A DNA stretch of 64,000 nt from Gemmatimonadales bacterium. Lineage in GTDB: Bacteria > Gemmatimonadota > Gemmatimonadetes > Gemmatimonadales > Gemmatimonadaceae. Shown here in pieces: positions 17,838-38,399 of the stretch (position 1 is the stretch's first letter; every line of letters begins with the position of its first letter). Below the pieces are notes generated by a model. The model made no database searches, had not been told where the DNA came from, and worked only from the letters and a program-made list of their open reading frames with translations. The DNA is taken from positions 9,140 through 73,139 of the forward strand of contig JBBRFQ010000001.1 of NCBI GenBank assembly GCA_038224035.1, in the 5' to 3' direction. Made by a program: the position numbers and the translations under genes.

Positions 17838-17954
17838 CGTTTAGCCGCCTCGTGTGTCGGTAACCCGTTGATCTATCATCAGTTTCACGATGCAAGCGAC
17901 GCCTGCGTCAGTTTGGCCCGCGCTCTGCACTAGAACAAGACCAACCGATTCCTC

Positions 17955-18674: not shown

Positions 18675-18778
18675 CCGGTCGGCGTTAGACTAGGCACAAG
18701 GGATGGGCGCCGGGTCGGTCCCGTTGCGGGTCCGGCTCGGCATTCCATTCCGCCACCCGCTGGCTGGCCCGTCTACTC

Positions 18779-20629: not shown

Positions 20630-20640
20630 CAGGTGGGGCT

Positions 20641-20668
20641 CGGTGCGTGGCGTGTGCGCCGCGCACCG
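20641..20668. terminator. GC-rich hairpin between convergent genes (possible bidirectional terminator, no U-tract)
   Basis: CGGTGCGTGGCG-TGTG-CGCCGCGCACCG forms a 12-bp stem with one G.T pair. It sits between the stops at 20629 and 20682. Confidence 0.35.
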
Positions 20669-20681
20669 GGATCGGGTTGGC

Positions 20682-21272
20682 TCAGCGCGGCGCCATCGTG
20701 CCCATCACGCTCGCGAACCCGAGCGCGACAATCACGCCGACCAGCACATAGGTGAGCATGCCGCTCGTGCCACCTACCCGGCGCAGCAACTGCAACGATT
20801 CGGCCGCGGACATCGGTTGCATCCCAACCACCCGAATCGCCGTGCGTGCGCGTCTGAACAGGAGCCAGTTACCGATGCCGCCGGCGGCAAGACACGCGGC
20901 AAGTTGCACGGCCAGAATCATCAATGCTGCCTGCTGATTCTCCGGTTTGGCCAACTCCTCGGGTGCGATTGATCGTGCGCCTGGCACGAGCCATTCCAGC
21001 AGCGCATTGGGGATGAAGTAAAACGCCGCAAACCACACGTACATCTTGCGATAGAGAAACCAGAACGGCATCGCAAAAAATGCCGACCAGTTCCAGGTGG
21101 GAACGAACGACGAATCGTCGACAAACACCGCCAGCTTCTGGCGATACGATCGCTCCCAGCGCGGCCCGATGAATGCGCCGAGCCGTTCCTCGAACTCGAC
21201 GCTTCCGGGCGCGCGCATGGCCGTGGCAGCACCGTTCGGTGTCGAGGTCGAGTTGTTCGGTTCGTCGGGCAT
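20682..21272 (-). CDS. DUF2628-like small membrane protein
   Basis: WNWSAFFAMPFWFLYRKMYVW matches the DUF2628 signature. The start was set at ATG MPDEPNN, 8 nt after the aguA stop. Confidence 0.65.
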   Translation of the reverse strand: MPDEPNNSTSTPNGAATAMRAPGSVEFEERLGAFIGPRWERSYRQKLAVFVDDSSFVPTWNWSAFFAMPFWFLYRKMYVWFAAFYFIPNALLEWLVPGARSIAPEELAKPENQQAALMILAVQLAACLAAGGIGNWLLFRRARTAIRVVGMQPMSAAESLQLLRRVGGTSGMLTYVLVGVIVALGFASVMGTMAPR

Positions 21273-21280
21273 CTTCTGAG

Positions 21281-22378
21281 TCACGGCGTGCGGGCAGACG
21301 GCTGTTGCTGCGTGAGACAATGCAACGTTCCGAGCCCCCAGACGAGATCGACAGCGTGAATGCCCACTACGCGTCGTGTCGGGAACAGATCAGCGAGGAT
21401 ATTGAGCGCCAATCGATCGTTCGGGTCATTGAACGTCGGTACGAGTACTACGCCGTTCGCGATGTAAAAGTTTGCGTAACTCGCCGGCAATCGCTGTCCA
21501 TCCATGACCACGGCGCGCGGATAGGGGAGCGTGACCACGCGCACTGGCTCCCCGCGTGCGTCGCGTGCGTGCTGCAGTCGCTGCAGGTTGTCGAGCGATC
21601 GGCGATGATTGTCGTCCGCGGGATCTTCTTCGTGCGCGAGCACGATGAGTCCCGGCGCCACAAACCGCGCGATGTCGTCCACGTGGCCGTGCGTGTCGTC
21701 ACCCACGCACCCTTCACCGAGCCAAATCGTATGCGAGATGCCAAGGGTATCGGCGAAGACGCGCTCGTAGTCGGCTCGCCCGAGTCCGGGATTGCGCACC
21801 TGCACATCAGAGAGCAGCCACTCTTCCGTCACCAGCAGGGTGCCGAGTCCGTCTGTTTCAATCCCGCCGCCCTCAAGCACGAGCGGTGCGCCGGTATCCG
21901 GGCGCGTCGCCTGCACCAGCGGCAAGCCGCTCACCGTGTGTACGATGTCCGGAATGCGACGGTCGTGCTCGAAATTGTCGTACTTGGCCCAGGCGTTGAA
22001 GTCCCAGCGCATCAGCGAGACGAGCCCGAGTGGATCCTGCACGCCCGTGGGCCCGCTATCGCGCAGCCAGACGCGATCGGTAGGCGCACGGTGCAGGCGA
22101 TACGTGTCGGGCGGCACGGCGTGCATGTCGAGGCACGCTGCGGCGTCTTCGCGCACGGCATCATCGTGGCACACGATGTCCACGAGCTCACTACCCGAGA
22201 TCGCCCGCACGATTTCCGCGTACACCCAGGGGATCGGCTCGAACTTGCCGGGCCAGTCGGGCTCATGATGCGGCCACGCAATCCACGTGGCGTCATGTGG
22301 CTCCCACTCAGCGGGCATTCGCCACACGCCACGCGGATTGATGACGTCCGGAGTGGGCAGCGTCTCGATTGGTGTCAT
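21281..22378 (-). CDS. aguA: Agmatine deiminase
   Basis: MPAEWEPHDATWIAWPH, FNAWAKYDNF, DDTHGHVDDIARF and the C-terminal GTLHCLTQQQP catalytic Cys motif. Confidence 0.85.
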   Translation of the reverse strand: MTPIETLPTPDVINPRGVWRMPAEWEPHDATWIAWPHHEPDWPGKFEPIPWVYAEIVRAISGSELVDIVCHDDAVREDAAACLDMHAVPPDTYRLHRAPTDRVWLRDSGPTGVQDPLGLVSLMRWDFNAWAKYDNFEHDRRIPDIVHTVSGLPLVQATRPDTGAPLVLEGGGIETDGLGTLLVTEEWLLSDVQVRNPGLGRADYERVFADTLGISHTIWLGEGCVGDDTHGHVDDIARFVAPGLIVLAHEEDPADDNHRRSLDNLQRLQHARDARGEPVRVVTLPYPRAVVMDGQRLPASYANFYIANGVVLVPTFNDPNDRLALNILADLFPTRRVVGIHAVDLVWGLGTLHCLTQQQPSARTP

Positions 22379-22387
22379 GGCGTGCGT

Positions 22388-23311
22388 CTACTCCCCGAGC
22401 CAGCGCTGAAGGATCGGGCCGTACGCATCGATGCGACGATCCCGAAGAAACGGCCAGTTGCGGCGCGTCTCTTCGATCAGGTTGAGATCGCACTCCGCGA
22501 CGAGCACTGCCGGATCTGTACCCGCCTCGGCGAGGTATCGACCAAACGGGTCGGCGATGAACGATTGACCAAAAAACTCAATGCCGTCCGTGCCGGCTTC
22601 GGCCTCGAAGCCCACGCGATTGGGCGATGCCACGAACACGCCATTGGCGATCGCGTGCGAGCGCTGCATGGTGCGCCACGCGTCGACCTGCGGGGTGCCG
22701 AACGTGGATTTTTCGGCTGGATGCCAACCGATCGCCGTGGGATAGAAGAGAATCTCCGCGCCAAGCAGGGACGTGATGCGCGCGCCTTCGGGAAACCACT
22801 GATCCCAGCAAATGAGCACGCCGATGTCGGCGTATTTCGTACGCCACATGCGAAAGCCGTTGATGCCCGGATGCCGATCGGTGCGCAGGTCAGCTCCCAC
22901 GTCGCCCGGCGCGAAATAGTATTTCTCTTCGAAGAGTGGGTCATGCGGGATATGCATCTTGCGATACGTGCCGAGCAGCGCGCCGTCCGCGTCAATCACG
23001 CACGCCGAGTTGCGATACAGGCCGGCCGCCTGGCGCTCATAGATGGGCACCACGAGTACGACGGCGAGTTCTTTCGCGACGGCCTGCAGCGCGTGCACGG
23101 TGTCACCGGCAATCGGCTCGGCGAGATCAAAGCGGTCCAGCTTGAGTGATTTGCAGAAGTACGGTGCATTGAACAGCTCCTGCATCGCAATGATCTGCGC
23201 ACCACGCGCGGCAGCTTCACGCACGCGGGTGATCGTACGCGCAAGGTTGGCAGCACGGTCATCACTGGCGGTCTCCTGGATGAGACCGACGGACACGGGG
23301 CGTCGGGACAT
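22388..23311 (-). CDS. aguB: N-carbamoylputrescine amidase (carbon-nitrogen hydrolase family)
   Basis: Nitrilase-superfamily pattern (MQELF...YRKMHIP...ICWDQWFPE). It is adjacent to aguA. The start was set at ATG MSRRPVSVGLIQ. Confidence 0.8.
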   Translation of the reverse strand: MSRRPVSVGLIQETASDDRAANLARTITRVREAAARGAQIIAMQELFNAPYFCKSLKLDRFDLAEPIAGDTVHALQAVAKELAVVLVVPIYERQAAGLYRNSACVIDADGALLGTYRKMHIPHDPLFEEKYYFAPGDVGADLRTDRHPGINGFRMWRTKYADIGVLICWDQWFPEGARITSLLGAEILFYPTAIGWHPAEKSTFGTPQVDAWRTMQRSHAIANGVFVASPNRVGFEAEAGTDGIEFFGQSFIADPFGRYLAEAGTDPAVLVAECDLNLIEETRRNWPFLRDRRIDAYGPILQRWLGE

Positions 23312-23422
23312 GGCGCGTGGGGCTCGGGACGAAGCGGCGCGCGGACAGGCGCGAGGACAATCATCAAAGTTCGCCGAGTGCAAACGCTGGGGGTAGGTCT
23401 GCCGCTTCGATCCGGGAGCTCG

Positions 23423-24202
23423 CTACTGCTTCGATGACGTCGCCACACGCGCTCGCAACGCGTCCGGCTCGGGAACGGGCTGGTCGAGCAGCGGCGTGAG
23501 ATAGCACCACAGCACGCGGCGGAGGTCGTCAAGCAGCGGTTTTTTTTCGGCGCTTGCGGCCCGGTCGCGCCGCGCCAGCAACGACTGCCCAATCGATGCA
23601 GCGACCAGTGCGGCGCGCCGCCGCTCCCGGGCGGGCAGCTTCGGATTGCGAGCCGCGAAGAGCAAATCGAGTCGATCGACGATGGAGTCGAAGAGCTGCG
23701 CTCGAATACGATTGGGCGCCGCGCCGGTCGAGTCGACGGGGGCATCCGCCGTCATGAACACGCGTCGAAAGGCCGGATTTCTGTCGTGAAACGAAGCCAA
23801 CGGTCGTACGATGCGATCGATGAGCCGATCAAGCGGCATTCCGCGCGGATCGGTGGCAAACGCCTTCTCGTGGATTCTCCGGAGTTCATCGGCGAATCGC
23901 AGGGCAAGCGCGGCCACCACGGCGTCGCGATTCGGAAAGAATTGATAAAGCGAGCCTTTGGCCGTGCGCGCTCGCAGCGCAATCGCTTCGGCGGTGGCCG
24001 CATGGAGACCGTGCTCGGCGATCACCTCAGCGGCCGCATCGAGCAGCAGGTCAACGCGCTGCTGGCCGCGGATCTGCCGGGGTTTGCGGCGGTAAGTCGC
24101 GTCGGGCTCGTCGGCGCGCGTGGGTGCATCAGCGGGCCGTTCAGCGCTCGCTCGGGGAACGGTGTCGCGCGCGGGGGGACGCTTGGGCGGACGAGTGGGC
24201 AT
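23423..24202 (-). CDS. TetR/AcrR family transcriptional regulator
   Basis: Helix-turn-helix region LLDAAAEVIAEHGLHAATAEAIALRARTAKGSLYQFFPNRDAV, preceded by a Pro/Arg-rich N-terminal tail. Confidence 0.85.
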   Translation of the reverse strand: MPTRPPKRPPARDTVPRASAERPADAPTRADEPDATYRRKPRQIRGQQRVDLLLDAAAEVIAEHGLHAATAEAIALRARTAKGSLYQFFPNRDAVVAALALRFADELRRIHEKAFATDPRGMPLDRLIDRIVRPLASFHDRNPAFRRVFMTADAPVDSTGAAPNRIRAQLFDSIVDRLDLLFAARNPKLPARERRRAALVAASIGQSLLARRDRAASAEKKPLLDDLRRVLWCYLTPLLDQPVPEPDALRARVATSSKQ

Positions 24203-24385
24203 GCCGGGGTGAACGGGGGAGAGGGCTGCGGCGAATATCGCCCTTCAGACCCACTGAACACAACATGACGTTCGCGTCGTATTGCAAACATGACAGTGCC
24301 GTCGTGTTTTGGAGGACGGGCGAACGCGTCGGTCAGCGCATGCTGTGTCGATTTCCCCGCCGCGACGCAACGGAGAACGCTGGCG

Positions 24386-25981
24386 TCAAGCGCGACCGGG
24401 AGTTCGGCCCGGCCACCAGAGGAACGCCGACTCGTCGTCGGAAGGTGAACGCGAGATCCGGTCGCGCGGCGTGTCGGCACGAAGGAAGACCAGCACGATA
24501 TCCATGACATTCGTGCCGGTCGGTCCGGTGCGCAGTAGCGCGCTGGCCGCGTCCAGCGCACGGTAGCTGCGCAGGCGCTGCAGATCGCGCGCCGGATCGC
24601 GTCCGGCGCGTCGTATGAGCAGCGCGGAGTTCGCATCCACGATGGCGCCCGCCGCATCCGTCGGGCCGTCGCGTCCATCGGTGCCGGCGGCGAGTATCGT
24701 GATGCGCTGCGCGTCGTCACGTGTCTCGACGGCGCCGTCGAGCACCAGAGCGGCGGCCAGGGCGAGCGCTTGCATGCGCCCGCCGAGCGGCGCCTCACCG
24801 CGTGATGGATCACCCGGCCGCGGTGGTGTGAGCAAGCGCGCGTATGCACGCTGGGGATTCTCATCGGCGATGGCCGTCGACGAGGCGTCGTTTGGTGGCT
24901 CTTCATCATCGTCACCGAACAGACGGCGCGCATCGTGCATATTGACCACAGTAGGCTCACCGCCGAACACCATGAGTGCCGCGCCAGCGTGACGTCGGGC
25001 CACGGAGAGCGCGGCTTGCGCAATCGCTCCGCCGAGCGATTCGGCTTCGCCTTCAAGCGGCAAGTCCACCATCTCCGCGTGCTCGATCCCGGCATTCAGC
25101 GCGGCGCGTACTGCGGCCTGTTGCGCTTCGGCGTTGCAGGCAATCACCTCGTAGGTGACGCGCTCGAACGCCGGATGTGTGGGCGACGGTGGAATTACGG
25201 CAACATGATCGCTGCCTTCGAGGCCGAGCGCCCGCGCAATCGGCGCGGGAAACGCCGAGCGCAGTCCGAATGCGTCACATAATCCGAGCACCGTGGAGTA
25301 AAGCAGTGGATCGGCTGTACAGGGCCCCGAGCCGATCACCGCGGGATCGTCGCCGATCACGTCGGAAAAAGCCAGGACGTGCGTCGCGCGCGCGCCGCGT
25401 GCATGGATGGCCGTGGCGAGCCGGCCACCGCCCCATCGCAGGAGTCGACGCCGAATCGCATTCATCTGATGAATTGCCAGTCCGCGCTCCATCATCTGCT
25501 GCATGGCAGTCGCGAGGTGCGTCTGCGCCTCCGCCGGATGACCGACGAGCGCGACGAGTTCGGCACACGGTGCGGCGCACAGCGATGTGGCGCCTCCGGA
25601 CAGCAGCACCAACACGTCATCATCGACATTGATCTCGGCGATCGCGTTCGCGATGGCATCGGCGGCCGCTAAGGAGCCGATGTCGGGCAAAGGATGATCG
25701 CCTACTCTGAGTGGCAACGGTCCGCCCACGTAATCATTCGGACGGTGCGCGGCGATCACCAAGCCACCGGCCAACGGGGTACCGGCCTCCCGCAGCGCGC
25801 CGAGCGCTCCGGTCGCCATCTCGGGGGCGGCCTTACCGAGCGCAAACACGTGCACCGGCGATGCGGTGCCACGCGTCTGAAGCCAATCGCGCGCACGATC
25901 GTGTGCACGCGGGAACGGCGACACGCCCTGAATGGCCGCGCGATGCAGTGCGGTCAACAGGGCGTGCGGTGTATCTGTCAT
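24386..25981 (-). CDS. MOFRL-family glycerate 2-kinase / hydroxypyruvate-reductase-like protein (DUF4147 + MOFRL) with an internal insertion
   Basis: LLSGGATSL, FGGEPTV, AAGTDGRDGPTDAAGA and TGPTGTNVMD are family motifs. About 50 extra acidic/Pro-rich residues lie between GGEPTV and the GGR(M)Q motif. Confidence 0.7.
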   Translation of the reverse strand: MTDTPHALLTALHRAAIQGVSPFPRAHDRARDWLQTRGTASPVHVFALGKAAPEMATGALGALREAGTPLAGGLVIAAHRPNDYVGGPLPLRVGDHPLPDIGSLAAADAIANAIAEINVDDDVLVLLSGGATSLCAAPCAELVALVGHPAEAQTHLATAMQQMMERGLAIHQMNAIRRRLLRWGGGRLATAIHARGARATHVLAFSDVIGDDPAVIGSGPCTADPLLYSTVLGLCDAFGLRSAFPAPIARALGLEGSDHVAVIPPSPTHPAFERVTYEVIACNAEAQQAAVRAALNAGIEHAEMVDLPLEGEAESLGGAIAQAALSVARRHAGAALMVFGGEPTVVNMHDARRLFGDDDEEPPNDASSTAIADENPQRAYARLLTPPRPGDPSRGEAPLGGRMQALALAAALVLDGAVETRDDAQRITILAAGTDGRDGPTDAAGAIVDANSALLIRRAGRDPARDLQRLRSYRALDAASALLRTGPTGTNVMDIVLVFLRADTPRDRISRSPSDDESAFLWWPGRTPGRA

Positions 25982-25990
25982 CAGTGTGCG

Positions 25991-26575
25991 TCAGCGCGCG
26001 ACTTTCTTGATCGCCACGTCGAGTTCATCGTAGGCGTCCTGCGCCATCGCGCGAAAGCTGGTCGCGTAGCTGATCTTGCCGTCGGGACCAATGACGTACA
26101 GGTAGCGCTTGTGATAGCCTGTTTCGGTGGCCGCATGGTAGAGGGCGCCGACTTTCTTGTCGGTGTCCGCACCCATCGCGAACTGGAATCCATCATCCTT
26201 GGCCCAGGCCGTGAGATCAGCGCCATTGTCGGTGCTGATACCAACCAGCGTGACGTTCTTGCCGTTGAGGAACATGCTTTCGTACTTGTCGCGGTACGTG
26301 TGCATCTGCGCGGTGCAGCCGCTGGTGCGGGCTTTCGGGAAAAAGGCCAACACCACCGTCTCCCCGCGATGCTCGGAGAGCTTGAACGGCTTGGCGGTGG
26401 GTCCGGCCTGCGTCACGGTCGTCAGTGTGAAGTCGGGCGCGATGTCACCAACGCTGAGCAGCGAGGCTGCCGGCGCCTGCGCGTGCAGCGGCAAAAGCGA
26501 GGGCGCGACAATCAGCACCGCTGCGGCCAGGAACGATCGGGAACGAAGCATTGAACAAGACTCCATGAAGGGCAA
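25991..26575 (-). CDS. Secreted peroxiredoxin (AhpC/TSA-Bcp type)
   Basis: Signal peptide, APDFTL, the peroxidatic Cys context FFPKARTSGCT and GISTD. Confidence 0.8.
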   Translation of the reverse strand: MPFMESCSMLRSRSFLAAAVLIVAPSLLPLHAQAPAASLLSVGDIAPDFTLTTVTQAGPTAKPFKLSEHRGETVVLAFFPKARTSGCTAQMHTYRDKYESMFLNGKNVTLVGISTDNGADLTAWAKDDGFQFAMGADTDKKVGALYHAATETGYHKRYLYVIGPDGKISYATSFRAMAQDAYDELDVAIKKVAR

Positions 26576-26823
26576 AATTGCGTGGGCGAATCAGTACAGC
26601 ACGGAAGATACCCCCGAAACCGTGGACACGTTCGGGGCTGTCGGTGTCCGCAGGACGGGACGGGTCATGTGCCGACAAAAGGACAATGCTCGGTGACCCC
26701 CGGCACGTTTCCTCTGCCACGTCCTCCCGATACGGGTGATTCGCGGTGGCACGGCTTGTGCTCTGTCAGTGGGTAACGCTGGCCTGCGTGGTCAGCGGCA
26801 CGATCTTCTTTCCGAGGTGCACC

Positions 26824-27408
26824 ATGGCTACTTCTTCGTTAACGTTTGCGCTGCTAGCGTCAGTTGTTGCCGTCACCGCGTGCGGCGGCCGCGACACTCG
26901 CGCCCTTGACGCCGCACTCCAGTCGGATCTCGCCATGGCCTCCACCGCGCCCGGCCTGCGATCGGCGTATGTCAGTCCCATGGAGATGGGCTATCCACAG
27001 GGCTACGCGCCGCCTGGCTATGCACCGGGTTACCCGCCGCAGCCGTACGGCTACCCAACGCCGTACCCGCAGCCGGGGTACCCGCAGCCGTACCCGCCGC
27101 AGCCCTACGGCTATCCACAGCCTGCGCCCGCCCGCGCACCGCAGCAGGTTGTGTATCGGGCGCCCGCCCCGTCGGGATCCGGCACCGTTCGTTCAGGATC
27201 CGGCACTGGTACGAGTGGCGGAACCGGTGCCGGTCAGGCCACCGAGCGGAATACGCAGCGGGGCGCGATCATCGGTGCTGCCACCGGCGCGGCGGTCGGG
27301 ATTGCCACGCAGCGCGACAAGGTGAAGGGTGGCGCTGTTGGCGCGGTGGCCGGTGCGGTGCTTGGCGGCGTCGTGGGCTCGCAGATCTACACCAAGCCGA
27401 GACCGTAG
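26824..27408 (+). CDS. Pro/Tyr/Gly-rich lipoprotein with C-terminal glycine-zipper domain
   Basis: Lipoprotein signal MATSSLTFALLASVVAVTAC, a PY-rich repeat block, and a C-terminal GAIIGAATGAAVG...GGAVGAVAGAVLGGVVG zipper. The start was set at ATG 26824. Confidence 0.6.
   Translation: MATSSLTFALLASVVAVTACGGRDTRALDAALQSDLAMASTAPGLRSAYVSPMEMGYPQGYAPPGYAPGYPPQPYGYPTPYPQPGYPQPYPPQPYGYPQPAPARAPQQVVYRAPAPSGSGTVRSGSGTGTSGGTGAGQATERNTQRGAIIGAATGAAVGIATQRDKVKGGAVGAVAGAVLGGVVGSQIYTKPRP
26989..27126 (+). repeat. Imperfect in-frame tandem repeats encoding (G)YP(Q/P)P-type units
   Basis: The DNA reads ...ccgcagccgtacggctaccca...ccgtacccgcagccggggtacccgcagccgtacccgccgcagccctacggctatccacag. It encodes GYPQGYAPPGYAPGYPPQPYGYPTPYPQPGYPQPYPPQPYGYPQPAP. 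Confidence 0.6.
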
Positions 27409-27546
27409 CGAAATGGACCTGGGTCGACGTGCTGTTGGCACAGCTGAGCCAGCCGCTTGACGGGCCGGCCCGATACTTTAATAGTATCCGTGTTCCGGCT
27501 TCCCGGCTCCAGCTACAGTTTCATTCCACGCAGGTGCGGCAACGCA

Positions 27547-28098
27547 ATGAGCTACCTCGTCAAGCCCGCGGCTCCACATCACATTCCGGCGCTGTCGGAA
27601 ATCGAGCGTGCTGCCGCGACGCTGTTTACGACTGAAGACTTGCCGGAGTTGTTACGGAACGAGGTCATCGCGGCACAGCGATTTGAGGATGCCCAGCGCG
27701 ACGATCGGTTGTGGGTCGCCGTCGATTCAGCTGATCAACCGGTGGGTTTTCTGTTGGCCGACGTCGTGGACGACACACTGCACATTGCGGAAATGGCCGT
27801 GCATCCGGAACACGCGCGCCGTGGCTTGGGAGCGACGTTGCTTCGACATATGTTGCTCGTCGCGGAACATCACGGGCACCACGCGGTGACATTGACCACG
27901 TTCTCGCATGTCGCGTGGAACGCACCGTTTTATCAACGGCAGGGATTTGTGGTGCTGGGCGATGACGAATGTGGGCCTGAGTTGCGCGCCTCGCTGGAGC
28001 AAGAGGGCGCACGCGGGCTCAGTCACCGCGTTGCGATGCGTCGACAGGTACGTCGCGCCGAACGCACGACACACTGGGCGGAACGAGGCAACTCCTGA
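27547..28098 (+). CDS. GNAT family N-acetyltransferase
   Basis: Acetyl-CoA binding motif AVHPEHARRGLGATLL and a typical size of 183 aa. The start was set at ATG MSYLVKP. The stop TGA at 28096-28098 is 20 nt from the palindrome axis. Confidence 0.85.
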   Translation: MSYLVKPAAPHHIPALSEIERAAATLFTTEDLPELLRNEVIAAQRFEDAQRDDRLWVAVDSADQPVGFLLADVVDDTLHIAEMAVHPEHARRGLGATLLRHMLLVAEHHGHHAVTLTTFSHVAWNAPFYQRQGFVVLGDDECGPELRASLEQEGARGLSHRVAMRRQVRRAERTTHWAERGNS

Positions 28099-28138
28099 AC
28101 AAACGGCCGCCGGAACACGTGTTCCGGCGGCCGTTTGT
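28099..28138. terminator. Axis hairpin: 40-nt perfect palindrome ACAAACGGCCGCCGGAACAC|GTGTTCCGGCGGCCGTTTGT, terminator-like, between the two tail-to-tail GNAT copies
   Basis: GC-rich stem flanked by an A-rich 5' and a T-rich 3' tract (TTTGTT), which looks like a bidirectional intrinsic terminator. The symmetry centre of the whole 56-kb palindrome lies between 28118 and 28119. Confidence 0.5.
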
Positions 28139-28690
28139 TCAGGAGTTGCCTCGTTCCGCCCAGTGTGTCGTGCGTTCGGCGCGACGTACCTGTCGACGCA
28201 TCGCAACGCGGTGACTGAGCCCGCGTGCGCCCTCTTGCTCCAGCGAGGCGCGCAACTCAGGCCCACATTCGTCATCGCCCAGCACCACAAATCCCTGCCG
28301 TTGATAAAACGGTGCGTTCCACGCGACATGCGAGAACGTGGTCAATGTCACCGCGTGGTGCCCGTGATGTTCCGCGACGAGCAACATATGTCGAAGCAAC
28401 GTCGCTCCCAAGCCACGGCGCGCGTGTTCCGGATGCACGGCCATTTCCGCAATGTGCAGTGTGTCGTCCACGACGTCGGCCAACAGAAAACCCACCGGTT
28501 GATCAGCTGAATCGACGGCGACCCACAACCGATCGTCGCGCTGGGCATCCTCAAATCGCTGTGCCGCGATGACCTCGTTCCGTAACAACTCCGGCAAGTC
28601 TTCAGTCGTAAACAGCGTCGCGGCAGCACGCTCGATTTCCGACAGCGCCGGAATGTGATGTGGAGCCGCGGGCTTGACGAGGTAGCTCAT
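28139..28690 (-). CDS. GNAT family N-acetyltransferase (mirror copy)
   Basis: Exact mirror of 27547..28098 with identical translation. Confidence 0.85.
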   Translation of the reverse strand: MSYLVKPAAPHHIPALSEIERAAATLFTTEDLPELLRNEVIAAQRFEDAQRDDRLWVAVDSADQPVGFLLADVVDDTLHIAEMAVHPEHARRGLGATLLRHMLLVAEHHGHHAVTLTTFSHVAWNAPFYQRQGFVVLGDDECGPELRASLEQEGARGLSHRVAMRRQVRRAERTTHWAERGNS

Positions 28691-28828
28691 TGCGTTGCCG
28701 CACCTGCGTGGAATGAAACTGTAGCTGGAGCCGGGAAGCCGGAACACGGATACTATTAAAGTATCGGGCCGGCCCGTCAAGCGGCTGGCTCAGCTGTGCC
28801 AACAGCACGTCGACCCAGGTCCATTTCG

Positions 28829-29413
28829 CTACGGTCTCGGCTTGGTGTAGATCTGCGAGCCCACGACGCCGCCAAGCACCGCACCGGCCACCGCGCCAAC
28901 AGCGCCACCCTTCACCTTGTCGCGCTGCGTGGCAATCCCGACCGCCGCGCCGGTGGCAGCACCGATGATCGCGCCCCGCTGCGTATTCCGCTCGGTGGCC
29001 TGACCGGCACCGGTTCCGCCACTCGTACCAGTGCCGGATCCTGAACGAACGGTGCCGGATCCCGACGGGGCGGGCGCCCGATACACAACCTGCTGCGGTG
29101 CGCGGGCGGGCGCAGGCTGTGGATAGCCGTAGGGCTGCGGCGGGTACGGCTGCGGGTACCCCGGCTGCGGGTACGGCGTTGGGTAGCCGTACGGCTGCGG
29201 CGGGTAACCCGGTGCATAGCCAGGCGGCGCGTAGCCCTGTGGATAGCCCATCTCCATGGGACTGACATACGCCGATCGCAGGCCGGGCGCGGTGGAGGCC
29301 ATGGCGAGATCCGACTGGAGTGCGGCGTCAAGGGCGCGAGTGTCGCGGCCGCCGCACGCGGTGACGGCAACAACTGACGCTAGCAGCGCAAACGTTAACG
29401 AAGAAGTAGCCAT
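28829..29413 (-). CDS. Pro/Tyr/Gly-rich glycine-zipper lipoprotein (mirror copy)
   Basis: Exact mirror of 26824..27408. Confidence 0.6.
   Translation of the reverse strand: MATSSLTFALLASVVAVTACGGRDTRALDAALQSDLAMASTAPGLRSAYVSPMEMGYPQGYAPPGYAPGYPPQPYGYPTPYPQPGYPQPYPPQPYGYPQPAPARAPQQVVYRAPAPSGSGTVRSGSGTGTSGGTGAGQATERNTQRGAIIGAATGAAVGIATQRDKVKGGAVGAVAGAVLGGVVGSQIYTKPRP
29111..29248 (-). repeat. PY-rich in-frame tandem repeat block (mirror copy)
   Basis: Exact mirror of 26989..27126. Confidence 0.6.
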
Positions 29414-29661
29414 GGTGCACCTCGGAAAGAAGATCGTGCCGCTGACCACGCAGGCCAGCGTTACCCACTGACAGAGCACAAGCCGTGCCACCGCGAATCA
29501 CCCGTATCGGGAGGACGTGGCAGAGGAAACGTGCCGGGGGTCACCGAGCATTGTCCTTTTGTCGGCACATGACCCGTCCCGTCCTGCGGACACCGACAGC
29601 CCCGAACGTGTCCACGGTTTCGGGGGTATCTTCCGTGCTGTACTGATTCGCCCACGCAATT

Positions 29662-30246
29662 TTGCCCTTCATGGAGTCTTGTTCAATGCTTCGTTCCCGA
29701 TCGTTCCTGGCCGCAGCGGTGCTGATTGTCGCGCCCTCGCTTTTGCCGCTGCACGCGCAGGCGCCGGCAGCCTCGCTGCTCAGCGTTGGTGACATCGCGC
29801 CCGACTTCACACTGACGACCGTGACGCAGGCCGGACCCACCGCCAAGCCGTTCAAGCTCTCCGAGCATCGCGGGGAGACGGTGGTGTTGGCCTTTTTCCC
29901 GAAAGCCCGCACCAGCGGCTGCACCGCGCAGATGCACACGTACCGCGACAAGTACGAAAGCATGTTCCTCAACGGCAAGAACGTCACGCTGGTTGGTATC
30001 AGCACCGACAATGGCGCTGATCTCACGGCCTGGGCCAAGGATGATGGATTCCAGTTCGCGATGGGTGCGGACACCGACAAGAAAGTCGGCGCCCTCTACC
30101 ATGCGGCCACCGAAACAGGCTATCACAAGCGCTACCTGTACGTCATTGGTCCCGACGGCAAGATCAGCTACGCGACCAGCTTTCGCGCGATGGCGCAGGA
30201 CGCCTACGATGAACTCGACGTGGCGATCAAGAAAGTCGCGCGCTGA
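29662..30246 (+). CDS. Secreted peroxiredoxin (mirror copy)
   Basis: Exact mirror of 25991..26575. Confidence 0.8.
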   Translation: MPFMESCSMLRSRSFLAAAVLIVAPSLLPLHAQAPAASLLSVGDIAPDFTLTTVTQAGPTAKPFKLSEHRGETVVLAFFPKARTSGCTAQMHTYRDKYESMFLNGKNVTLVGISTDNGADLTAWAKDDGFQFAMGADTDKKVGALYHAATETGYHKRYLYVIGPDGKISYATSFRAMAQDAYDELDVAIKKVAR

Positions 30247-30255
30247 CGCACACTG

Positions 30256-31851
30256 ATGACAGATACACCGCACGCCCTGTTGACCGCACTGCATCGCGCG
30301 GCCATTCAGGGCGTGTCGCCGTTCCCGCGTGCACACGATCGTGCGCGCGATTGGCTTCAGACGCGTGGCACCGCATCGCCGGTGCACGTGTTTGCGCTCG
30401 GTAAGGCCGCCCCCGAGATGGCGACCGGAGCGCTCGGCGCGCTGCGGGAGGCCGGTACCCCGTTGGCCGGTGGCTTGGTGATCGCCGCGCACCGTCCGAA
30501 TGATTACGTGGGCGGACCGTTGCCACTCAGAGTAGGCGATCATCCTTTGCCCGACATCGGCTCCTTAGCGGCCGCCGATGCCATCGCGAACGCGATCGCC
30601 GAGATCAATGTCGATGATGACGTGTTGGTGCTGCTGTCCGGAGGCGCCACATCGCTGTGCGCCGCACCGTGTGCCGAACTCGTCGCGCTCGTCGGTCATC
30701 CGGCGGAGGCGCAGACGCACCTCGCGACTGCCATGCAGCAGATGATGGAGCGCGGACTGGCAATTCATCAGATGAATGCGATTCGGCGTCGACTCCTGCG
30801 ATGGGGCGGTGGCCGGCTCGCCACGGCCATCCATGCACGCGGCGCGCGCGCGACGCACGTCCTGGCTTTTTCCGACGTGATCGGCGACGATCCCGCGGTG
30901 ATCGGCTCGGGGCCCTGTACAGCCGATCCACTGCTTTACTCCACGGTGCTCGGATTATGTGACGCATTCGGACTGCGCTCGGCGTTTCCCGCGCCGATTG
31001 CGCGGGCGCTCGGCCTCGAAGGCAGCGATCATGTTGCCGTAATTCCACCGTCGCCCACACATCCGGCGTTCGAGCGCGTCACCTACGAGGTGATTGCCTG
31101 CAACGCCGAAGCGCAACAGGCCGCAGTACGCGCCGCGCTGAATGCCGGGATCGAGCACGCGGAGATGGTGGACTTGCCGCTTGAAGGCGAAGCCGAATCG
31201 CTCGGCGGAGCGATTGCGCAAGCCGCGCTCTCCGTGGCCCGACGTCACGCTGGCGCGGCACTCATGGTGTTCGGCGGTGAGCCTACTGTGGTCAATATGC
31301 ACGATGCGCGCCGTCTGTTCGGTGACGATGATGAAGAGCCACCAAACGACGCCTCGTCGACGGCCATCGCCGATGAGAATCCCCAGCGTGCATACGCGCG
31401 CTTGCTCACACCACCGCGGCCGGGTGATCCATCACGCGGTGAGGCGCCGCTCGGCGGGCGCATGCAAGCGCTCGCCCTGGCCGCCGCTCTGGTGCTCGAC
31501 GGCGCCGTCGAGACACGTGACGACGCGCAGCGCATCACGATACTCGCCGCCGGCACCGATGGACGCGACGGCCCGACGGATGCGGCGGGCGCCATCGTGG
31601 ATGCGAACTCCGCGCTGCTCATACGACGCGCCGGACGCGATCCGGCGCGCGATCTGCAGCGCCTGCGCAGCTACCGTGCGCTGGACGCGGCCAGCGCGCT
31701 ACTGCGCACCGGACCGACCGGCACGAATGTCATGGATATCGTGCTGGTCTTCCTTCGTGCCGACACGCCGCGCGACCGGATCTCGCGTTCACCTTCCGAC
31801 GACGAGTCGGCGTTCCTCTGGTGGCCGGGCCGAACTCCCGGTCGCGCTTGA
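30256..31851 (+). CDS. MOFRL-family glycerate kinase-like protein (mirror copy)
   Basis: Exact mirror of 24386..25981. Confidence 0.7.
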   Translation: MTDTPHALLTALHRAAIQGVSPFPRAHDRARDWLQTRGTASPVHVFALGKAAPEMATGALGALREAGTPLAGGLVIAAHRPNDYVGGPLPLRVGDHPLPDIGSLAAADAIANAIAEINVDDDVLVLLSGGATSLCAAPCAELVALVGHPAEAQTHLATAMQQMMERGLAIHQMNAIRRRLLRWGGGRLATAIHARGARATHVLAFSDVIGDDPAVIGSGPCTADPLLYSTVLGLCDAFGLRSAFPAPIARALGLEGSDHVAVIPPSPTHPAFERVTYEVIACNAEAQQAAVRAALNAGIEHAEMVDLPLEGEAESLGGAIAQAALSVARRHAGAALMVFGGEPTVVNMHDARRLFGDDDEEPPNDASSTAIADENPQRAYARLLTPPRPGDPSRGEAPLGGRMQALALAAALVLDGAVETRDDAQRITILAAGTDGRDGPTDAAGAIVDANSALLIRRAGRDPARDLQRLRSYRALDAASALLRTGPTGTNVMDIVLVFLRADTPRDRISRSPSDDESAFLWWPGRTPGRA

Positions 31852-32034
31852 CGCCAGCGTTCTCCGTTGCGTCGCGGCGGGGAAATCGACACAGCATGCG
31901 CTGACCGACGCGTTCGCCCGTCCTCCAAAACACGACGGCACTGTCATGTTTGCAATACGACGCGAACGTCATGTTGTGTTCAGTGGGTCTGAAGGGCGAT
32001 ATTCGCCGCAGCCCTCTCCCCCGTTCACCCCGGC

Positions 32035-32814
32035 ATGCCCACTCGTCCGCCCAAGCGTCCCCCCGCGCGCGACACCGTTCCCCGAGCGAGCGCTGAACGG
32101 CCCGCTGATGCACCCACGCGCGCCGACGAGCCCGACGCGACTTACCGCCGCAAACCCCGGCAGATCCGCGGCCAGCAGCGCGTTGACCTGCTGCTCGATG
32201 CGGCCGCTGAGGTGATCGCCGAGCACGGTCTCCATGCGGCCACCGCCGAAGCGATTGCGCTGCGAGCGCGCACGGCCAAAGGCTCGCTTTATCAATTCTT
32301 TCCGAATCGCGACGCCGTGGTGGCCGCGCTTGCCCTGCGATTCGCCGATGAACTCCGGAGAATCCACGAGAAGGCGTTTGCCACCGATCCGCGCGGAATG
32401 CCGCTTGATCGGCTCATCGATCGCATCGTACGACCGTTGGCTTCGTTTCACGACAGAAATCCGGCCTTTCGACGCGTGTTCATGACGGCGGATGCCCCCG
32501 TCGACTCGACCGGCGCGGCGCCCAATCGTATTCGAGCGCAGCTCTTCGACTCCATCGTCGATCGACTCGATTTGCTCTTCGCGGCTCGCAATCCGAAGCT
32601 GCCCGCCCGGGAGCGGCGGCGCGCCGCACTGGTCGCTGCATCGATTGGGCAGTCGTTGCTGGCGCGGCGCGACCGGGCCGCAAGCGCCGAAAAAAAACCG
32701 CTGCTTGACGACCTCCGCCGCGTGCTGTGGTGCTATCTCACGCCGCTGCTCGACCAGCCCGTTCCCGAGCCGGACGCGTTGCGAGCGCGTGTGGCGACGT
32801 CATCGAAGCAGTAG
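32035..32814 (+). CDS. TetR/AcrR family regulator (mirror copy)
   Basis: Exact mirror of 23423..24202. Confidence 0.85.
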   Translation: MPTRPPKRPPARDTVPRASAERPADAPTRADEPDATYRRKPRQIRGQQRVDLLLDAAAEVIAEHGLHAATAEAIALRARTAKGSLYQFFPNRDAVVAALALRFADELRRIHEKAFATDPRGMPLDRLIDRIVRPLASFHDRNPAFRRVFMTADAPVDSTGAAPNRIRAQLFDSIVDRLDLLFAARNPKLPARERRRAALVAASIGQSLLARRDRAASAEKKPLLDDLRRVLWCYLTPLLDQPVPEPDALRARVATSSKQ

Positions 32815-32925
32815 CGAGCTCCCGGATCGAAGCGGCAGACCTACCCCCAGCGTTTGCACTCGGCGAACTTTGATGATTGTCCTCGCGCCTGTCCGCGCGC
32901 CGCTTCGTCCCGAGCCCCACGCGCC

Positions 32926-33849
32926 ATGTCCCGACGCCCCGTGTCCGTCGGTCTCATCCAGGAGACCGCCAGTGATGACCGTGCTGCCAACCTTGCGCGT
33001 ACGATCACCCGCGTGCGTGAAGCTGCCGCGCGTGGTGCGCAGATCATTGCGATGCAGGAGCTGTTCAATGCACCGTACTTCTGCAAATCACTCAAGCTGG
33101 ACCGCTTTGATCTCGCCGAGCCGATTGCCGGTGACACCGTGCACGCGCTGCAGGCCGTCGCGAAAGAACTCGCCGTCGTACTCGTGGTGCCCATCTATGA
33201 GCGCCAGGCGGCCGGCCTGTATCGCAACTCGGCGTGCGTGATTGACGCGGACGGCGCGCTGCTCGGCACGTATCGCAAGATGCATATCCCGCATGACCCA
33301 CTCTTCGAAGAGAAATACTATTTCGCGCCGGGCGACGTGGGAGCTGACCTGCGCACCGATCGGCATCCGGGCATCAACGGCTTTCGCATGTGGCGTACGA
33401 AATACGCCGACATCGGCGTGCTCATTTGCTGGGATCAGTGGTTTCCCGAAGGCGCGCGCATCACGTCCCTGCTTGGCGCGGAGATTCTCTTCTATCCCAC
33501 GGCGATCGGTTGGCATCCAGCCGAAAAATCCACGTTCGGCACCCCGCAGGTCGACGCGTGGCGCACCATGCAGCGCTCGCACGCGATCGCCAATGGCGTG
33601 TTCGTGGCATCGCCCAATCGCGTGGGCTTCGAGGCCGAAGCCGGCACGGACGGCATTGAGTTTTTTGGTCAATCGTTCATCGCCGACCCGTTTGGTCGAT
33701 ACCTCGCCGAGGCGGGTACAGATCCGGCAGTGCTCGTCGCGGAGTGCGATCTCAACCTGATCGAAGAGACGCGCCGCAACTGGCCGTTTCTTCGGGATCG
33801 TCGCATCGATGCGTACGGCCCGATCCTTCAGCGCTGGCTCGGGGAGTAG
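32926..33849 (+). CDS. aguB: N-carbamoylputrescine amidase (mirror copy)
   Basis: Exact mirror of 22388..23311. The ATG at 32926 was verified in the sequence. Confidence 0.8.
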   Translation: MSRRPVSVGLIQETASDDRAANLARTITRVREAAARGAQIIAMQELFNAPYFCKSLKLDRFDLAEPIAGDTVHALQAVAKELAVVLVVPIYERQAAGLYRNSACVIDADGALLGTYRKMHIPHDPLFEEKYYFAPGDVGADLRTDRHPGINGFRMWRTKYADIGVLICWDQWFPEGARITSLLGAEILFYPTAIGWHPAEKSTFGTPQVDAWRTMQRSHAIANGVFVASPNRVGFEAEAGTDGIEFFGQSFIADPFGRYLAEAGTDPAVLVAECDLNLIEETRRNWPFLRDRRIDAYGPILQRWLGE

Positions 33850-33858
33850 ACGCACGCC

Positions 33859-34956
33859 ATGACACCAATCGAGACGCTGCCCACTCCGGACGTCATCAAT
33901 CCGCGTGGCGTGTGGCGAATGCCCGCTGAGTGGGAGCCACATGACGCCACGTGGATTGCGTGGCCGCATCATGAGCCCGACTGGCCCGGCAAGTTCGAGC
34001 CGATCCCCTGGGTGTACGCGGAAATCGTGCGGGCGATCTCGGGTAGTGAGCTCGTGGACATCGTGTGCCACGATGATGCCGTGCGCGAAGACGCCGCAGC
34101 GTGCCTCGACATGCACGCCGTGCCGCCCGACACGTATCGCCTGCACCGTGCGCCTACCGATCGCGTCTGGCTGCGCGATAGCGGGCCCACGGGCGTGCAG
34201 GATCCACTCGGGCTCGTCTCGCTGATGCGCTGGGACTTCAACGCCTGGGCCAAGTACGACAATTTCGAGCACGACCGTCGCATTCCGGACATCGTACACA
34301 CGGTGAGCGGCTTGCCGCTGGTGCAGGCGACGCGCCCGGATACCGGCGCACCGCTCGTGCTTGAGGGCGGCGGGATTGAAACAGACGGACTCGGCACCCT
34401 GCTGGTGACGGAAGAGTGGCTGCTCTCTGATGTGCAGGTGCGCAATCCCGGACTCGGGCGAGCCGACTACGAGCGCGTCTTCGCCGATACCCTTGGCATC
34501 TCGCATACGATTTGGCTCGGTGAAGGGTGCGTGGGTGACGACACGCACGGCCACGTGGACGACATCGCGCGGTTTGTGGCGCCGGGACTCATCGTGCTCG
34601 CGCACGAAGAAGATCCCGCGGACGACAATCATCGCCGATCGCTCGACAACCTGCAGCGACTGCAGCACGCACGCGACGCACGCGGGGAGCCAGTGCGCGT
34701 GGTCACGCTCCCCTATCCGCGCGCCGTGGTCATGGATGGACAGCGATTGCCGGCGAGTTACGCAAACTTTTACATCGCGAACGGCGTAGTACTCGTACCG
34801 ACGTTCAATGACCCGAACGATCGATTGGCGCTCAATATCCTCGCTGATCTGTTCCCGACACGACGCGTAGTGGGCATTCACGCTGTCGATCTCGTCTGGG
34901 GGCTCGGAACGTTGCATTGTCTCACGCAGCAACAGCCGTCTGCCCGCACGCCGTGA
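33859..34956 (+). CDS. aguA: Agmatine deiminase (mirror copy)
   Basis: Exact mirror of 21281..22378. Confidence 0.85.
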   Translation: MTPIETLPTPDVINPRGVWRMPAEWEPHDATWIAWPHHEPDWPGKFEPIPWVYAEIVRAISGSELVDIVCHDDAVREDAAACLDMHAVPPDTYRLHRAPTDRVWLRDSGPTGVQDPLGLVSLMRWDFNAWAKYDNFEHDRRIPDIVHTVSGLPLVQATRPDTGAPLVLEGGGIETDGLGTLLVTEEWLLSDVQVRNPGLGRADYERVFADTLGISHTIWLGEGCVGDDTHGHVDDIARFVAPGLIVLAHEEDPADDNHRRSLDNLQRLQHARDARGEPVRVVTLPYPRAVVMDGQRLPASYANFYIANGVVLVPTFNDPNDRLALNILADLFPTRRVVGIHAVDLVWGLGTLHCLTQQQPSARTP

Positions 34957-34964
34957 CTCAGAAG

Positions 34965-35555
34965 ATGCCCGACGAACCGAACAACTCGACCTCGACACCG
35001 AACGGTGCTGCCACGGCCATGCGCGCGCCCGGAAGCGTCGAGTTCGAGGAACGGCTCGGCGCATTCATCGGGCCGCGCTGGGAGCGATCGTATCGCCAGA
35101 AGCTGGCGGTGTTTGTCGACGATTCGTCGTTCGTTCCCACCTGGAACTGGTCGGCATTTTTTGCGATGCCGTTCTGGTTTCTCTATCGCAAGATGTACGT
35201 GTGGTTTGCGGCGTTTTACTTCATCCCCAATGCGCTGCTGGAATGGCTCGTGCCAGGCGCACGATCAATCGCACCCGAGGAGTTGGCCAAACCGGAGAAT
35301 CAGCAGGCAGCATTGATGATTCTGGCCGTGCAACTTGCCGCGTGTCTTGCCGCCGGCGGCATCGGTAACTGGCTCCTGTTCAGACGCGCACGCACGGCGA
35401 TTCGGGTGGTTGGGATGCAACCGATGTCCGCGGCCGAATCGTTGCAGTTGCTGCGCCGGGTAGGTGGCACGAGCGGCATGCTCACCTATGTGCTGGTCGG
35501 CGTGATTGTCGCGCTCGGGTTCGCGAGCGTGATGGGCACGATGGCGCCGCGCTGA
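34965..35555 (+). CDS. DUF2628-like membrane protein (mirror copy)
   Basis: Exact mirror of 20682..21272. The ATG at 34965 was verified. Confidence 0.65.
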   Translation: MPDEPNNSTSTPNGAATAMRAPGSVEFEERLGAFIGPRWERSYRQKLAVFVDDSSFVPTWNWSAFFAMPFWFLYRKMYVWFAAFYFIPNALLEWLVPGARSIAPEELAKPENQQAALMILAVQLAACLAAGGIGNWLLFRRARTAIRVVGMQPMSAAESLQLLRRVGGTSGMLTYVLVGVIVALGFASVMGTMAPR

Positions 35556-35568
35556 GCCAACCCGATCC

Positions 35569-35596
35569 CGGTGCGCGGCGCACACGCCACGCACCG
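35569..35596. terminator. GC-rich hairpin between convergent genes (mirror copy)
   Basis: Exact mirror of 20641..20668. Confidence 0.35.
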
Positions 35597-35607
35597 AGCC
35601 CCACCTG

Positions 35608-37458: not shown

Positions 37459-37562
37459 GAGTAGACGGGCCAGCCAGCGGGTGGCGGAATGGAATGCCGA
37501 GCCGGACCCGCAACGGGACCGACCCGGCGCCCATCCCTTGTGCCTAGTCTAACGCCGACCGG

Positions 37563-38282: not shown

Positions 38283-38399
38283 GAGGAATCGGTTGGTCTT
38301 GTTCTAGTGCAGAGCGCGGGCCAAACTGACGCAGGCGTCGCTTGCATCGTGAAACTGATGATAGATCAACGGGTTACCGACACACGAGGCGGCTAAACG

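What the first reader, a model, noticed from the sequence alone, without database searches (positions are those of the whole stretch)
28085..28152. The symmetry axis sits in a terminator-like GC hairpin 20 nt after the GNAT stop codon, a likely fold-back nucleation site
Seen: the 40 nt between the two tail-to-tail GNAT stop codons read ACAAACGGCCGCCGGAACAC|GTGTTCCGGCGGCCGTTTGT. This is a GC-rich stem with an A-rich left flank and a T-rich right flank (TTTGTT), which is the shape of a bidirectional intrinsic terminator.

Inference: the native single-copy locus probably already carried this short palindrome. A short native inverted repeat is where strand-switching polymerases (in vitro) or resected double-strand breaks (in vivo) fold back and prime synthesis of the complementary arm. 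Because the short palindrome belongs to both arms, the true breakpoint is hidden inside it.

A protelomerase-type hairpin telomere would also give a spacer-less axis. However, a gene ending 20 nt from the tip, and the absence of any telomere resolvase in the window, argue against that.
Basis: partly seen in the sequence, partly recalled or inferred. Interest (0 to 1): 0.6.

Follow-up and report, generated by a model that had tools for sequence, protein, structure and literature searches.

The report
Assembly fold-back at a real terminator hairpin
The mirror-image repeat turns round inside a real 36-base hairpin between two convergent genes of an uncultured Gemmatimonadales bacterium, but the mirror itself is an assembly or library artefact, because other assemblies of the same DNA run straight through the hairpin into a different gene.

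Summary
The axis (window 28118|28119) lies 20 nt after the GNAT stop codon, inside a GC-rich palindrome.

The palindrome is not local. The whole 74,514-nt contig C1 is exactly its own reverse complement. A second contig of the same genome, C10 (42,932 nt), is also a perfect palindrome and turns at the same 36-nt core, AAACGGCCGCCGGAACAC|GTGTTCCGGCGGCCGTTT.

The native locus is therefore C1 arm, hairpin, C10 arm: GNAT gene, hairpin, then convergent PEP-CTERM and betaine-type ABC transporter genes. Three results support this:
- A same-genus genome is colinear across the junction.
- Two independent JGI metagenome contigs about 96% identical in DNA to C1 and C10 (a closely related strain) cross it in one alignment and follow the deposited mirror for only 26 nt.
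- Independent k=31 Logan contigs reach the core from both sides.

No telomere resolvase was found. Contig-end overlaps of exactly 141 nt point to a MEGAHIT-type assembly.

The 37-kb arms are phantom, and in vivo fold-back and hairpin telomeres are contradicted.

It remains open whether chimeric reads or low-k graph steps made the false junction.

This scan has seen the same artefact in dozens of other genomes. It is ordinary and matters only for quality control.

The parts
27547..28098 (+). GNAT acetyltransferase gene (183 aa from the ATG; the longest ORF starts at TTG 27457). It is the last gene of the real C1 arm and its stop TGA is at 28096-28098.
   Evidence: Searches give the ORF and translation. 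One search matches Pfam PF00583, PF13508 and PF13673. One search finds the exact 183-aa product called on two independent Logan contigs.
28095..28118 (.). Left half of the native hairpin: CTGAAC + AAACGGCCGCCGGAACAC. The last 18 nt (28101-28118) are the left half of the native 36-nt perfect palindrome. The GNAT stop codon lies in the base of the stem.
   Evidence: The same sequence occurs in JGI contigs L022 and L023.
28119..28136 (.). Right half of the native 36-nt palindrome (GTGTTCCGGCGGCCGTTT). These 18 nt are shared by the true continuation (C10 arm) and the false one (mirror), so the switch point is hidden somewhere in 28101-28136.
   Evidence: C1 and C10 are identical for 18 nt on each side of their axes. 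Logan contigs from both flanks enter this core.
28137..64000 (.). Phantom mirror arm: the reverse complement of the C1 arm written a second time, including the mirrored GNAT copy at 28139-28690 on the minus strand. The first base that departs from the native sequence is 28137, which is G here and A in the native continuation on C10. Which of the two arms is called real is arbitrary, because they are the same sequence.
   Evidence: the whole contig is self-reverse-complementary. JGI contigs follow the deposited sequence only 26 nt past the axis and then continue into the C10 arm.
1..28094 (.). Real single-copy chromosome segment. It is the part of the 37,257-nt C1 arm that lies in the window, and it leads into the hairpin.
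   Evidence: colinear with same-genus contig G007:C193 at 76-81% identity; colinear with JGI contigs at 95.5-96.2% identity.

Best explanation
The hairpin is real and ordinary. It is a 36-nt perfect palindrome, or 48 nt with one mismatch, lying between the convergent stop codons of a GNAT acetyltransferase gene and a PEP-CTERM protein gene in an uncultured Gemmatimonadales bacterium. It has the shape of a bidirectional intrinsic terminator.

The giant palindrome around it is not real. At this site the short-read de Bruijn assembler (MEGAHIT-type, final k = 141) paired the wrong ends. It should have written arm A - hairpin - arm B. Instead it wrote A - hairpin - reverse complement of A (contig C1, which holds the window) and reverse complement of B - hairpin - B (contig C10).

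A perfectly palindromic word acts in the graph as an edge from a path to its own reverse complement. Rahman and Medvedev (2022) found that MEGAHIT writes such palindromic unitigs out in full and does not split them at the axis, so the whole unitig is written twice.

Shown: the native order A - hairpin - B, the reciprocal twin contig, the k = 141 signature, and that the hairpin is native.

Inferred: which step supplied the palindromic junction words of at least 142 nt. These could be low-k unitigs made unsafe by thin coverage, or real snap-back chimeric inserts formed at the hairpin during library preparation.
For: -: C1 (74,514 nt) is exactly its own reverse complement.
- C10 (42,932 nt) is the only other such contig.
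- the two axes share the same 36-nt core plus TTCAG at positions 20-24, and diverge completely beyond that.
- the C10 arm starts with the 3' end of a convergent PEP-CTERM gene whose stop lies 38 nt from the axis. A fused OpuAC/permease gene and an ABC ATPase gene follow.
- same-genus contig G007:C193 is colinear with C1 arm then C10 arm, with GNAT at 75% and the ABC protein at 79% identity, convergent and 117 nt apart.
- JGI contigs Ga0163152_10021676 and Ga0163144_10043127 align to the reconstructed junction in a single HSP (95.5% over 3,922 nt and 96.2% over 6,209 nt). They match the deposited mirror only 26 nt beyond the axis.
- Logan k=31 contigs of runs SRR19962010 and SRR19962013 reach the core from the GNAT side and from the PEP-CTERM side. 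Each stops 12 nt past the axis, exactly where a k=31 graph must branch.
- 242 contig-end overlaps of exactly 141 nt.
- both ends of C10 overlap the same end of contig C43, as expected if one arm is written twice.
- the 36-nt core is the longest spacer-less perfect palindrome in the assembly. The next longest (30, 28, 28 and 26 nt) were assembled normally.
- (PMC9528984): MEGAHIT and SPAdes output palindromic unitigs whole, and unitigs can be unsafe at imperfect coverage.
- (PMC9455707): 81 whole-contig palindromes in short-read M. bovis assemblies were judged to be assembly errors.
Against: - With a final k of 141, a 36-nt palindrome alone cannot make a palindromic 142-mer. Something else must have supplied it, either a chimeric read or a false contig inherited from k = 21-31. 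I could not see which.
- The JGI contigs come from a strain about 4% different, whose hairpin has a central T (CAT|GTG). They show the native order in a close relative, not in the very cells sampled.
- The exact 36-nt core was not found in any other public contig.
Confidence: 0.93

Rival explanations
1. The false junction existed physically in the sequencing library. Single strands ending at the hairpin snapped back and were extended by a polymerase during end repair or amplification, giving inserts of the form A-hairpin-A' and B'-hairpin-B. The assembler then only followed those reads. This is a variant of the artefact explanation, not an alternative to it. The 37-kb arms would still be built by the assembler.
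For: With k = 141, the palindromic junction words must be at least 142 nt, longer than the 36-nt native palindrome. Real chimeric reads are the simplest source. A break at the hairpin gives both reciprocal fold-backs at once, which matches the twin contigs. The hairpin is very stable, at -38 kcal/mol for 48 nt, and is the longest perfect palindrome in the assembly.
Against: No reads were seen. Such chimeras are normally a small minority and graph cleaning should remove them where true spanning reads exist. The closely related strain in the JGI contigs, whose hairpin is equally stable (-55.7 kcal/mol for the 87-nt stretch folded, against -50.6 for 90 nt here) but is not perfectly palindromic at its centre, was assembled correctly. 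This fits a graph rule that needs an exactly palindromic word better than it fits snap-back chemistry, which ignores loop bases.
Confidence: 0.35
2. In vivo palindrome: in the sampled cells a double-strand break at the hairpin was healed by fold-back synthesis, giving a real giant inverted duplication of the chromosome arm.
For: Short inverted repeats are known to nucleate palindromic duplications in vivo (established knowledge). The axis does lie in such a repeat.
Against: Both sides of the hairpin are mirrored reciprocally (C1 and C10). For a circular bacterial chromosome this would mean two dead-end palindromic molecules and no intact junction. The arms have no outer boundary of their own: they run to the contig ends, and both ends of C10 join the same neighbouring contig. 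Close relatives and a same-genus genome have the plain order. The arms show zero mismatches over 37 kb.
Confidence: 0.02
3. Hairpin telomeres: C1 and C10 are the two covalently closed ends of a linear replicon, and they share a resolvase target sequence.
For: Two palindromic contigs share 18 + 5 terminal bases. That is what a pair of telomeres with a common recognition site would look like when reads pass round the tip.
Against: No ResT/TelK catalytic domain was found in the genome at E <= 1, although the genome is only 84% complete. Genes end 20 and 38 nt from the supposed tips. Independent contigs of the closely related strain and of two more distant relatives read straight from one 'end' into the other. 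Both arms carry ordinary chromosomal genes.
Confidence: 0.01

Closest known systems
Palindromic maximal unitigs or whole-contig palindromes from de Bruijn graph assemblers (Rahman and Medvedev 2022, PMC9528984; 81 palindromic contigs in M. bovis short-read assemblies, PMC9455707)
   Same: The whole contig equals its own reverse complement, with no spacer and zero mismatches. The turn is at a short native palindrome. The assembler is of the type reported to write palindromic unitigs out whole.
   Different: Both reciprocal products are present in one bin (C1 and C10), so the native junction can be rebuilt from the assembly itself. The native palindrome (36 nt) is much shorter than the final k (141), so an extra step, either chimeric reads or inherited low-k contigs, must be assumed.
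Bidirectional intrinsic (Rho-independent) terminators between convergent genes
   Same: A GC-rich 16-bp stem with a 4-nt loop lies between two convergent stop codons 58 nt apart. An A-run lies upstream and a T-run downstream, so both strands read stem + UUUAUU or UUUGUU. A homologous hairpin is kept next to the PEP-CTERM gene end in a relative about 79% identical in DNA.
   Different: Termination was not tested. The consensus scan did not call the site, because the T-run is largely inside the extended stem. The same-genus genome that lacks the PEP-CTERM gene has no such hairpin.
Snap-back or inverted chimeric inserts formed at inverted repeats during library preparation or whole-genome amplification
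   Same: They give the junction type 'sequence - short inverted repeat - own reverse complement', and both reciprocal forms are expected from one break.
   Different: This comparison rests on general knowledge and was not tested here. No reads were available, and such inserts explain only the few hundred bases at the junction, not the 37-kb arms.
Protelomerase-made hairpin telomeres (Borrelia ResT, Agrobacterium TelA, phage N15 TelN)
   Same: Sequencing round a closed tip gives a spacer-less palindromic junction, and two ends can share a core sequence.
   Different: There is no resolvase domain in the genome. The two 'ends' are neighbours on uninterrupted contigs of relatives.

Membership tests
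Assembler-made whole-contig palindrome (fold-back artefact) | The entire contig is its own exact reverse complement, with no spacer and no mismatch | tested here: met
   37,257-nt arms, 0 mismatches, arms reach both contig ends.
Assembler-made whole-contig palindrome (fold-back artefact) | Independent assemblies of the same or near-identical DNA continue past the axis into non-mirrored sequence | tested here: met
   two JGI contigs (95.5-96.2% identity) leave the mirror 26 nt after the axis and continue 3 kb into the C10 arm. One search shows the same order in same-genus contig G007:C193.
Assembler-made whole-contig palindrome (fold-back artefact) | The turn lies at a native exact palindrome that gives the graph a self-reverse-complement word | tested here: met
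   a 36-nt perfect core is reached from both native flanks; it is the longest such palindrome in the assembly. The closely related strain, with a central mismatch, was assembled straight through.
Assembler-made whole-contig palindrome (fold-back artefact) | Read depth on the arms is single-copy, and no or few reads carry mirrored flanks beyond the native palindrome | not testable with these tools
The contig headers with depth are not shown.
Intrinsic (Rho-independent) terminator, bidirectional | A stable GC-rich stem-loop directly followed by a U-run on the transcript, on both strands | tested here: inconclusive
   16-bp GC-rich stem with a 4-nt loop at -32 kcal/mol, followed by UUUAUU on the plus strand and UUUGUU on the minus strand. 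The first three U pair with the upstream A-run. The consensus scan on the native JGI sequence gave no call.
Intrinsic (Rho-independent) terminator, bidirectional | Placed just after the stop codons of convergent genes | tested here: met
   the GNAT stop is 20 nt from the centre and the PEP-CTERM stop is 38 nt from it. L022 has the same layout.
Intrinsic (Rho-independent) terminator, bidirectional | Transcripts end at the site | not testable with these tools
   No RNA data were available.
Hairpin telomere of a linear replicon | A telomere resolvase (ResT/TelK/TelA-type) is encoded in the genome | tested here: not met
   no match to PF16684 at E <= 1 in the 84%-complete genome.
Hairpin telomere of a linear replicon | The DNA physically ends at the axis, with nothing joining the two flanks | tested here: not met
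   contigs of relatives join the two flanks without interruption.

The most novel reading that the evidence does not exclude
A sub-population of the sampled cells, or their extracellular or damaged DNA, really carries fold-back molecules nucleated at this terminator hairpin. On that reading the twin palindromic contigs would record a natural hairpin-driven breakage and fold-back event at a convergent-gene terminator and not a purely technical error.
Probability: 0.03. Interest if true: 0.55.

Novelty: not a real feature. Interest (0 to 1): 0.08.

Why it matters
This matters for data quality, not for biology.
- The deposited genome carries 58.7 kb of phantom sequence (37,257 + 21,466 nt), about 1.4% of its 4.12 Mb.
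- Its longest contig is really half as long as deposited.
- Dozens of genes are recorded twice as fake paralogues.
- One true junction, GNAT - hairpin - PEP-CTERM gene, is missing from the assembly.

The two contigs should be halved and joined into one 58,723-nt contig.

The case is useful as a teaching example. Both reciprocal mis-joins survive in one bin, so the native junction can be rebuilt from the assembly alone and then confirmed in independent contigs. The same check can be applied to the many similar contigs this scan has met: look for a second palindromic contig that shares the core.

Tried and rejected
- Exact search for the 36-nt core in genome contigs and metagenome contigs found nothing. 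The closely related strain differs by one central base.
I did not pass run accessions learned from another tool to read laying, because that tool asks for ids from the look-up of sequencing runs.
- Telomere resolvase search gave no hit, so the telomere reading was rejected.
- I looked for the same hairpin in the closest same-genus genome, G007:C193. Its 132-nt spacer has no comparable hairpin and no PEP-CTERM gene, so the hairpin travels with the PEP-CTERM gene.
- The simple terminator scan on the native JGI sequence gave no call.
- A literature search for 'MEGAHIT' plus 'palindromic contigs' found 0 papers. Broader terms found Rahman and Medvedev and the M. bovis report.
- I considered whether a pure k-mer collapse at the final k could explain the turn. 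I rejected this because 36 nt is shorter than 141.

Full report
**1. The observation**

The GNAT ORF ends with TGA at window 28096-28098. Next come ACAAACGGCCGCCGGAACAC (28099-28118) and its exact reverse complement (28119-28138), followed by the mirrored stop codon. The repeat finder reports arms 1-28118 and 28119-56236, 100% complementary with no spacer.

The window is C1:1376-65375 (minus strand) of a 402-contig, 4.12-Mb genome. In contig coordinates the whole of C1 (74,514 nt) is exactly its own reverse complement: two arms of 37,257 nt with no mismatch. The limit at window 56236 is therefore only the mirror of window position 1.

**2. A second palindromic contig supplies the other side of the hairpin**

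I scanned all 402 contigs. One other contig, C10 (42,932 nt), is also a perfect self-reverse-complement.

Its axis has the same core as C1. The two contigs are identical for 18 nt on each side of the axis (AAACGGCCGCCGGAACAC|GTGTTCCGGCGGCCGTTT). They differ at position 19, agree again at positions 20-24 (TTCAG), and are unrelated beyond that.

The simplest reading is that the native DNA is C1 arm, 36-nt palindrome, C10 arm, and that the wrong ends were paired. That gives A-P-A' (C1) and B'-P-B (C10).

The C10 arm begins with the 3' end of a convergent gene for a PEP-CTERM protein, whose stop lies 38 nt from the axis. A fused OpuAC-type binding protein/permease, an ABC ATPase and an EgtB/EgtD-like pair follow. 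The hairpin thus sits between two convergent stop codons 58 nt apart.

**3. Independent tests of the native order**

(a) Same-genus genome. In genome G007, contig C193 carries the GNAT homologue (75% identity) and, 117 nt downstream on the other strand, the ABC fusion protein (79%). By blastn the whole 11.4-kb contig is colinear with 'last 8 kb of the C1 arm + first 8 kb of the C10 arm'. The only difference is that about 1.1 kb holding the hairpin and the PEP-CTERM gene is replaced by 132 nt.

(b) Closely related strain. Two JGI metagenome contigs, Ga0163152_10021676 and Ga0163144_10043127, encode a 98%-identical GNAT. They read ...CTCCTGAACAAACGGCCGCCGGAACATGTGTTCCGGCGGCCGTTTGTTCAGGACGTGGCACGAGCTCAGGACACG..., which is GNAT stop, hairpin, PEP-CTERM gene end.
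- They align to the reconstructed junction in one HSP each: 95.5% over 3,922 nt and 96.2% over 6,209 nt.
- They follow the deposited C1 sequence only 26 nt past the axis, which is the hairpin's own symmetric part.
- A third contig at about 79% identity is also colinear. It keeps a homologous, imperfect hairpin beside the PEP-CTERM gene end.

(c) Logan contigs. These are independent k=31 assemblies of single runs. They carry the exact GNAT protein (SRR19962010, SRR30304982) and the exact PEP-CTERM protein (SRR19962010, SRR19962013). From both sides, the contigs that reach the hairpin (those of SRR19962010 and SRR19962013) run into the same core and stop 12 nt past the axis. That is exactly where a k=31 graph must branch if two flanks share a 36-nt palindrome. 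The SRR30304982 contig stops earlier, before the core.

These contigs also show that the perfectly palindromic centre (CAC|GTG) is in the reads on both flanks. The palindrome is native.

**4. The hairpin itself**

The native 36-nt core folds into a 16-bp stem with a 4-nt loop (-32.1 kcal/mol). With the five further pairs beyond a C·A mismatch, the 48-nt element gives -38.2 kcal/mol.

On the plus strand the GC-rich stem is followed by UUUAUU, and on the minus strand by UUUGUU. This position and shape are those of a bidirectional intrinsic terminator. However, the consensus scan did not call it, because the T-run lies partly inside the extended stem. No transcript data were available, so termination is an inference.

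The -68.6 kcal/mol obtained for the finding's own 68 nt comes from the artificial mirror, not from the native element.

**5. How the fold-back arose**

There are 242 contig-end overlaps of exactly 141 nt. This is the signature of a multi-k de Bruijn assembly ending at k = 141, as in MEGAHIT. Many related Gemmatimonadales MAGs carry 'k141_' contig names.

Rahman and Medvedev (PMC9528984) showed that a palindromic word creates an edge from a path to its own reverse complement. They also showed that MEGAHIT and SPAdes write such palindromic unitigs out whole, and that unitigs can be false where coverage is imperfect. Whole-contig palindromes have been reported as assembly errors in short-read bacterial assemblies (PMC9455707).

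Other observations fit this:
- Both ends of C10 overlap the same end of contig C43, as expected when one arm is written twice.
- The 36-nt core is the longest spacer-less perfect palindrome in the assembly. The next longest (30, 28, 28 and 26 nt) were assembled normally.
- The JGI strain's hairpin is equally stable but has a central mismatch, and it was assembled straight through.

One step remains open. A 36-nt palindrome cannot by itself give a palindromic 142-mer. The false junction words came either from low-k contigs (k = 21-31) carried forward, or from real snap-back inserts formed at the hairpin during library preparation. I put the involvement of real chimeric reads at roughly one in three. 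In either case the 37-kb arms are the assembler's work.

**6. Rivals**

In vivo fold-back is contradicted on four counts:
- the reciprocal twin contig;
- arms that have no boundary of their own and end at graph junctions;
- zero divergence over 37 kb;
- the plain gene order in relatives.

Hairpin telomeres would also give two palindromic contigs with a shared core. However, no ResT/TelK domain is found (genome 84% complete). Genes end 20 and 38 nt from the supposed tips. Contigs of relatives join the two 'ends' directly.

**7. Verdict**

Its main inference is also correct: the short palindrome is native, it is where the turn happens, and the breakpoint is hidden inside it. The giant palindrome is not a feature of the organism.

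The real element is an ordinary terminator-like hairpin between convergent genes. The deposited genome holds 58.7 kb of phantom duplicate sequence and lacks one true junction. C1 and C10 should be halved and joined into one contig of 58,723 nt.

Earlier reports of this scan describe the same artefact in many other genomes. I used them only as a pointer to the two papers, which I read myself.

Noticed in passing
G000 contig C10 (whole contig; L001 = C10:21467-41466): This is a second whole-contig perfect palindrome (42,932 nt) in the same genome, and the reciprocal partner of C1. Together the two contigs add 58.7 kb of phantom duplicate sequence to the MAG. Both ends of C10 overlap the same end of C43 by 141 nt.
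   Followed up: yes
L001 39-992 (-) versus G007:C193 7424-7555, G007:C353, G008:C94, G014:C8: The PEP-CTERM protein gene and its hairpin lie between the GNAT gene and the ABC transporter gene here and in the closely related strain (JGI contigs). They are absent from that spot in the closest same-genus genome. In other same-genus genomes a homologue (45-57% identity) lies upstream of, and divergent from, a GNAT paralogue. This suggests a small gene-order difference within the genus.
   Followed up: partly
L001 3618-5869 (+): An EgtB-like gene (DinB_2 + FGE-sulfatase) overlaps an EgtD-like histidine methyltransferase gene (PF10017, E = 2e-104). This looks like an ergothioneine synthesis pair, and it sits next to the betaine-type ABC transporter on the C10 arm.
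   Followed up: no
L019 (Logan contig of SRR30304982), last bases: This contig ends at ...CTCCTGAA, one base before position 19 from the axis. That is earlier than the k=31 branch point seen in the other runs. It may reflect a variant at position 19 in that sample or a coverage gap.
   Followed up: no
L022 940-975 / L023 3230-3265 versus window 28137-28144: In the JGI strain the right flank of the hairpin reads GTTCAGGA, so its stem is symmetric for 26 nt on each side apart from one central base. In this genome the centre is perfect but positions 19 and 25 on the right flank are mismatched. A strain combining both perfect parts would have a 52-nt perfect palindrome. Mixed strains in the sample could therefore have helped the mis-join.
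   Followed up: no
window 26989-27248: Short imperfect direct/inverted repeat signals (74 nt, 72%) lie inside the glycine-zipper lipoprotein gene and its mirror copy. They reflect the Pro/Tyr-rich repeat coding region and are not part of the hairpin.
   Followed up: no
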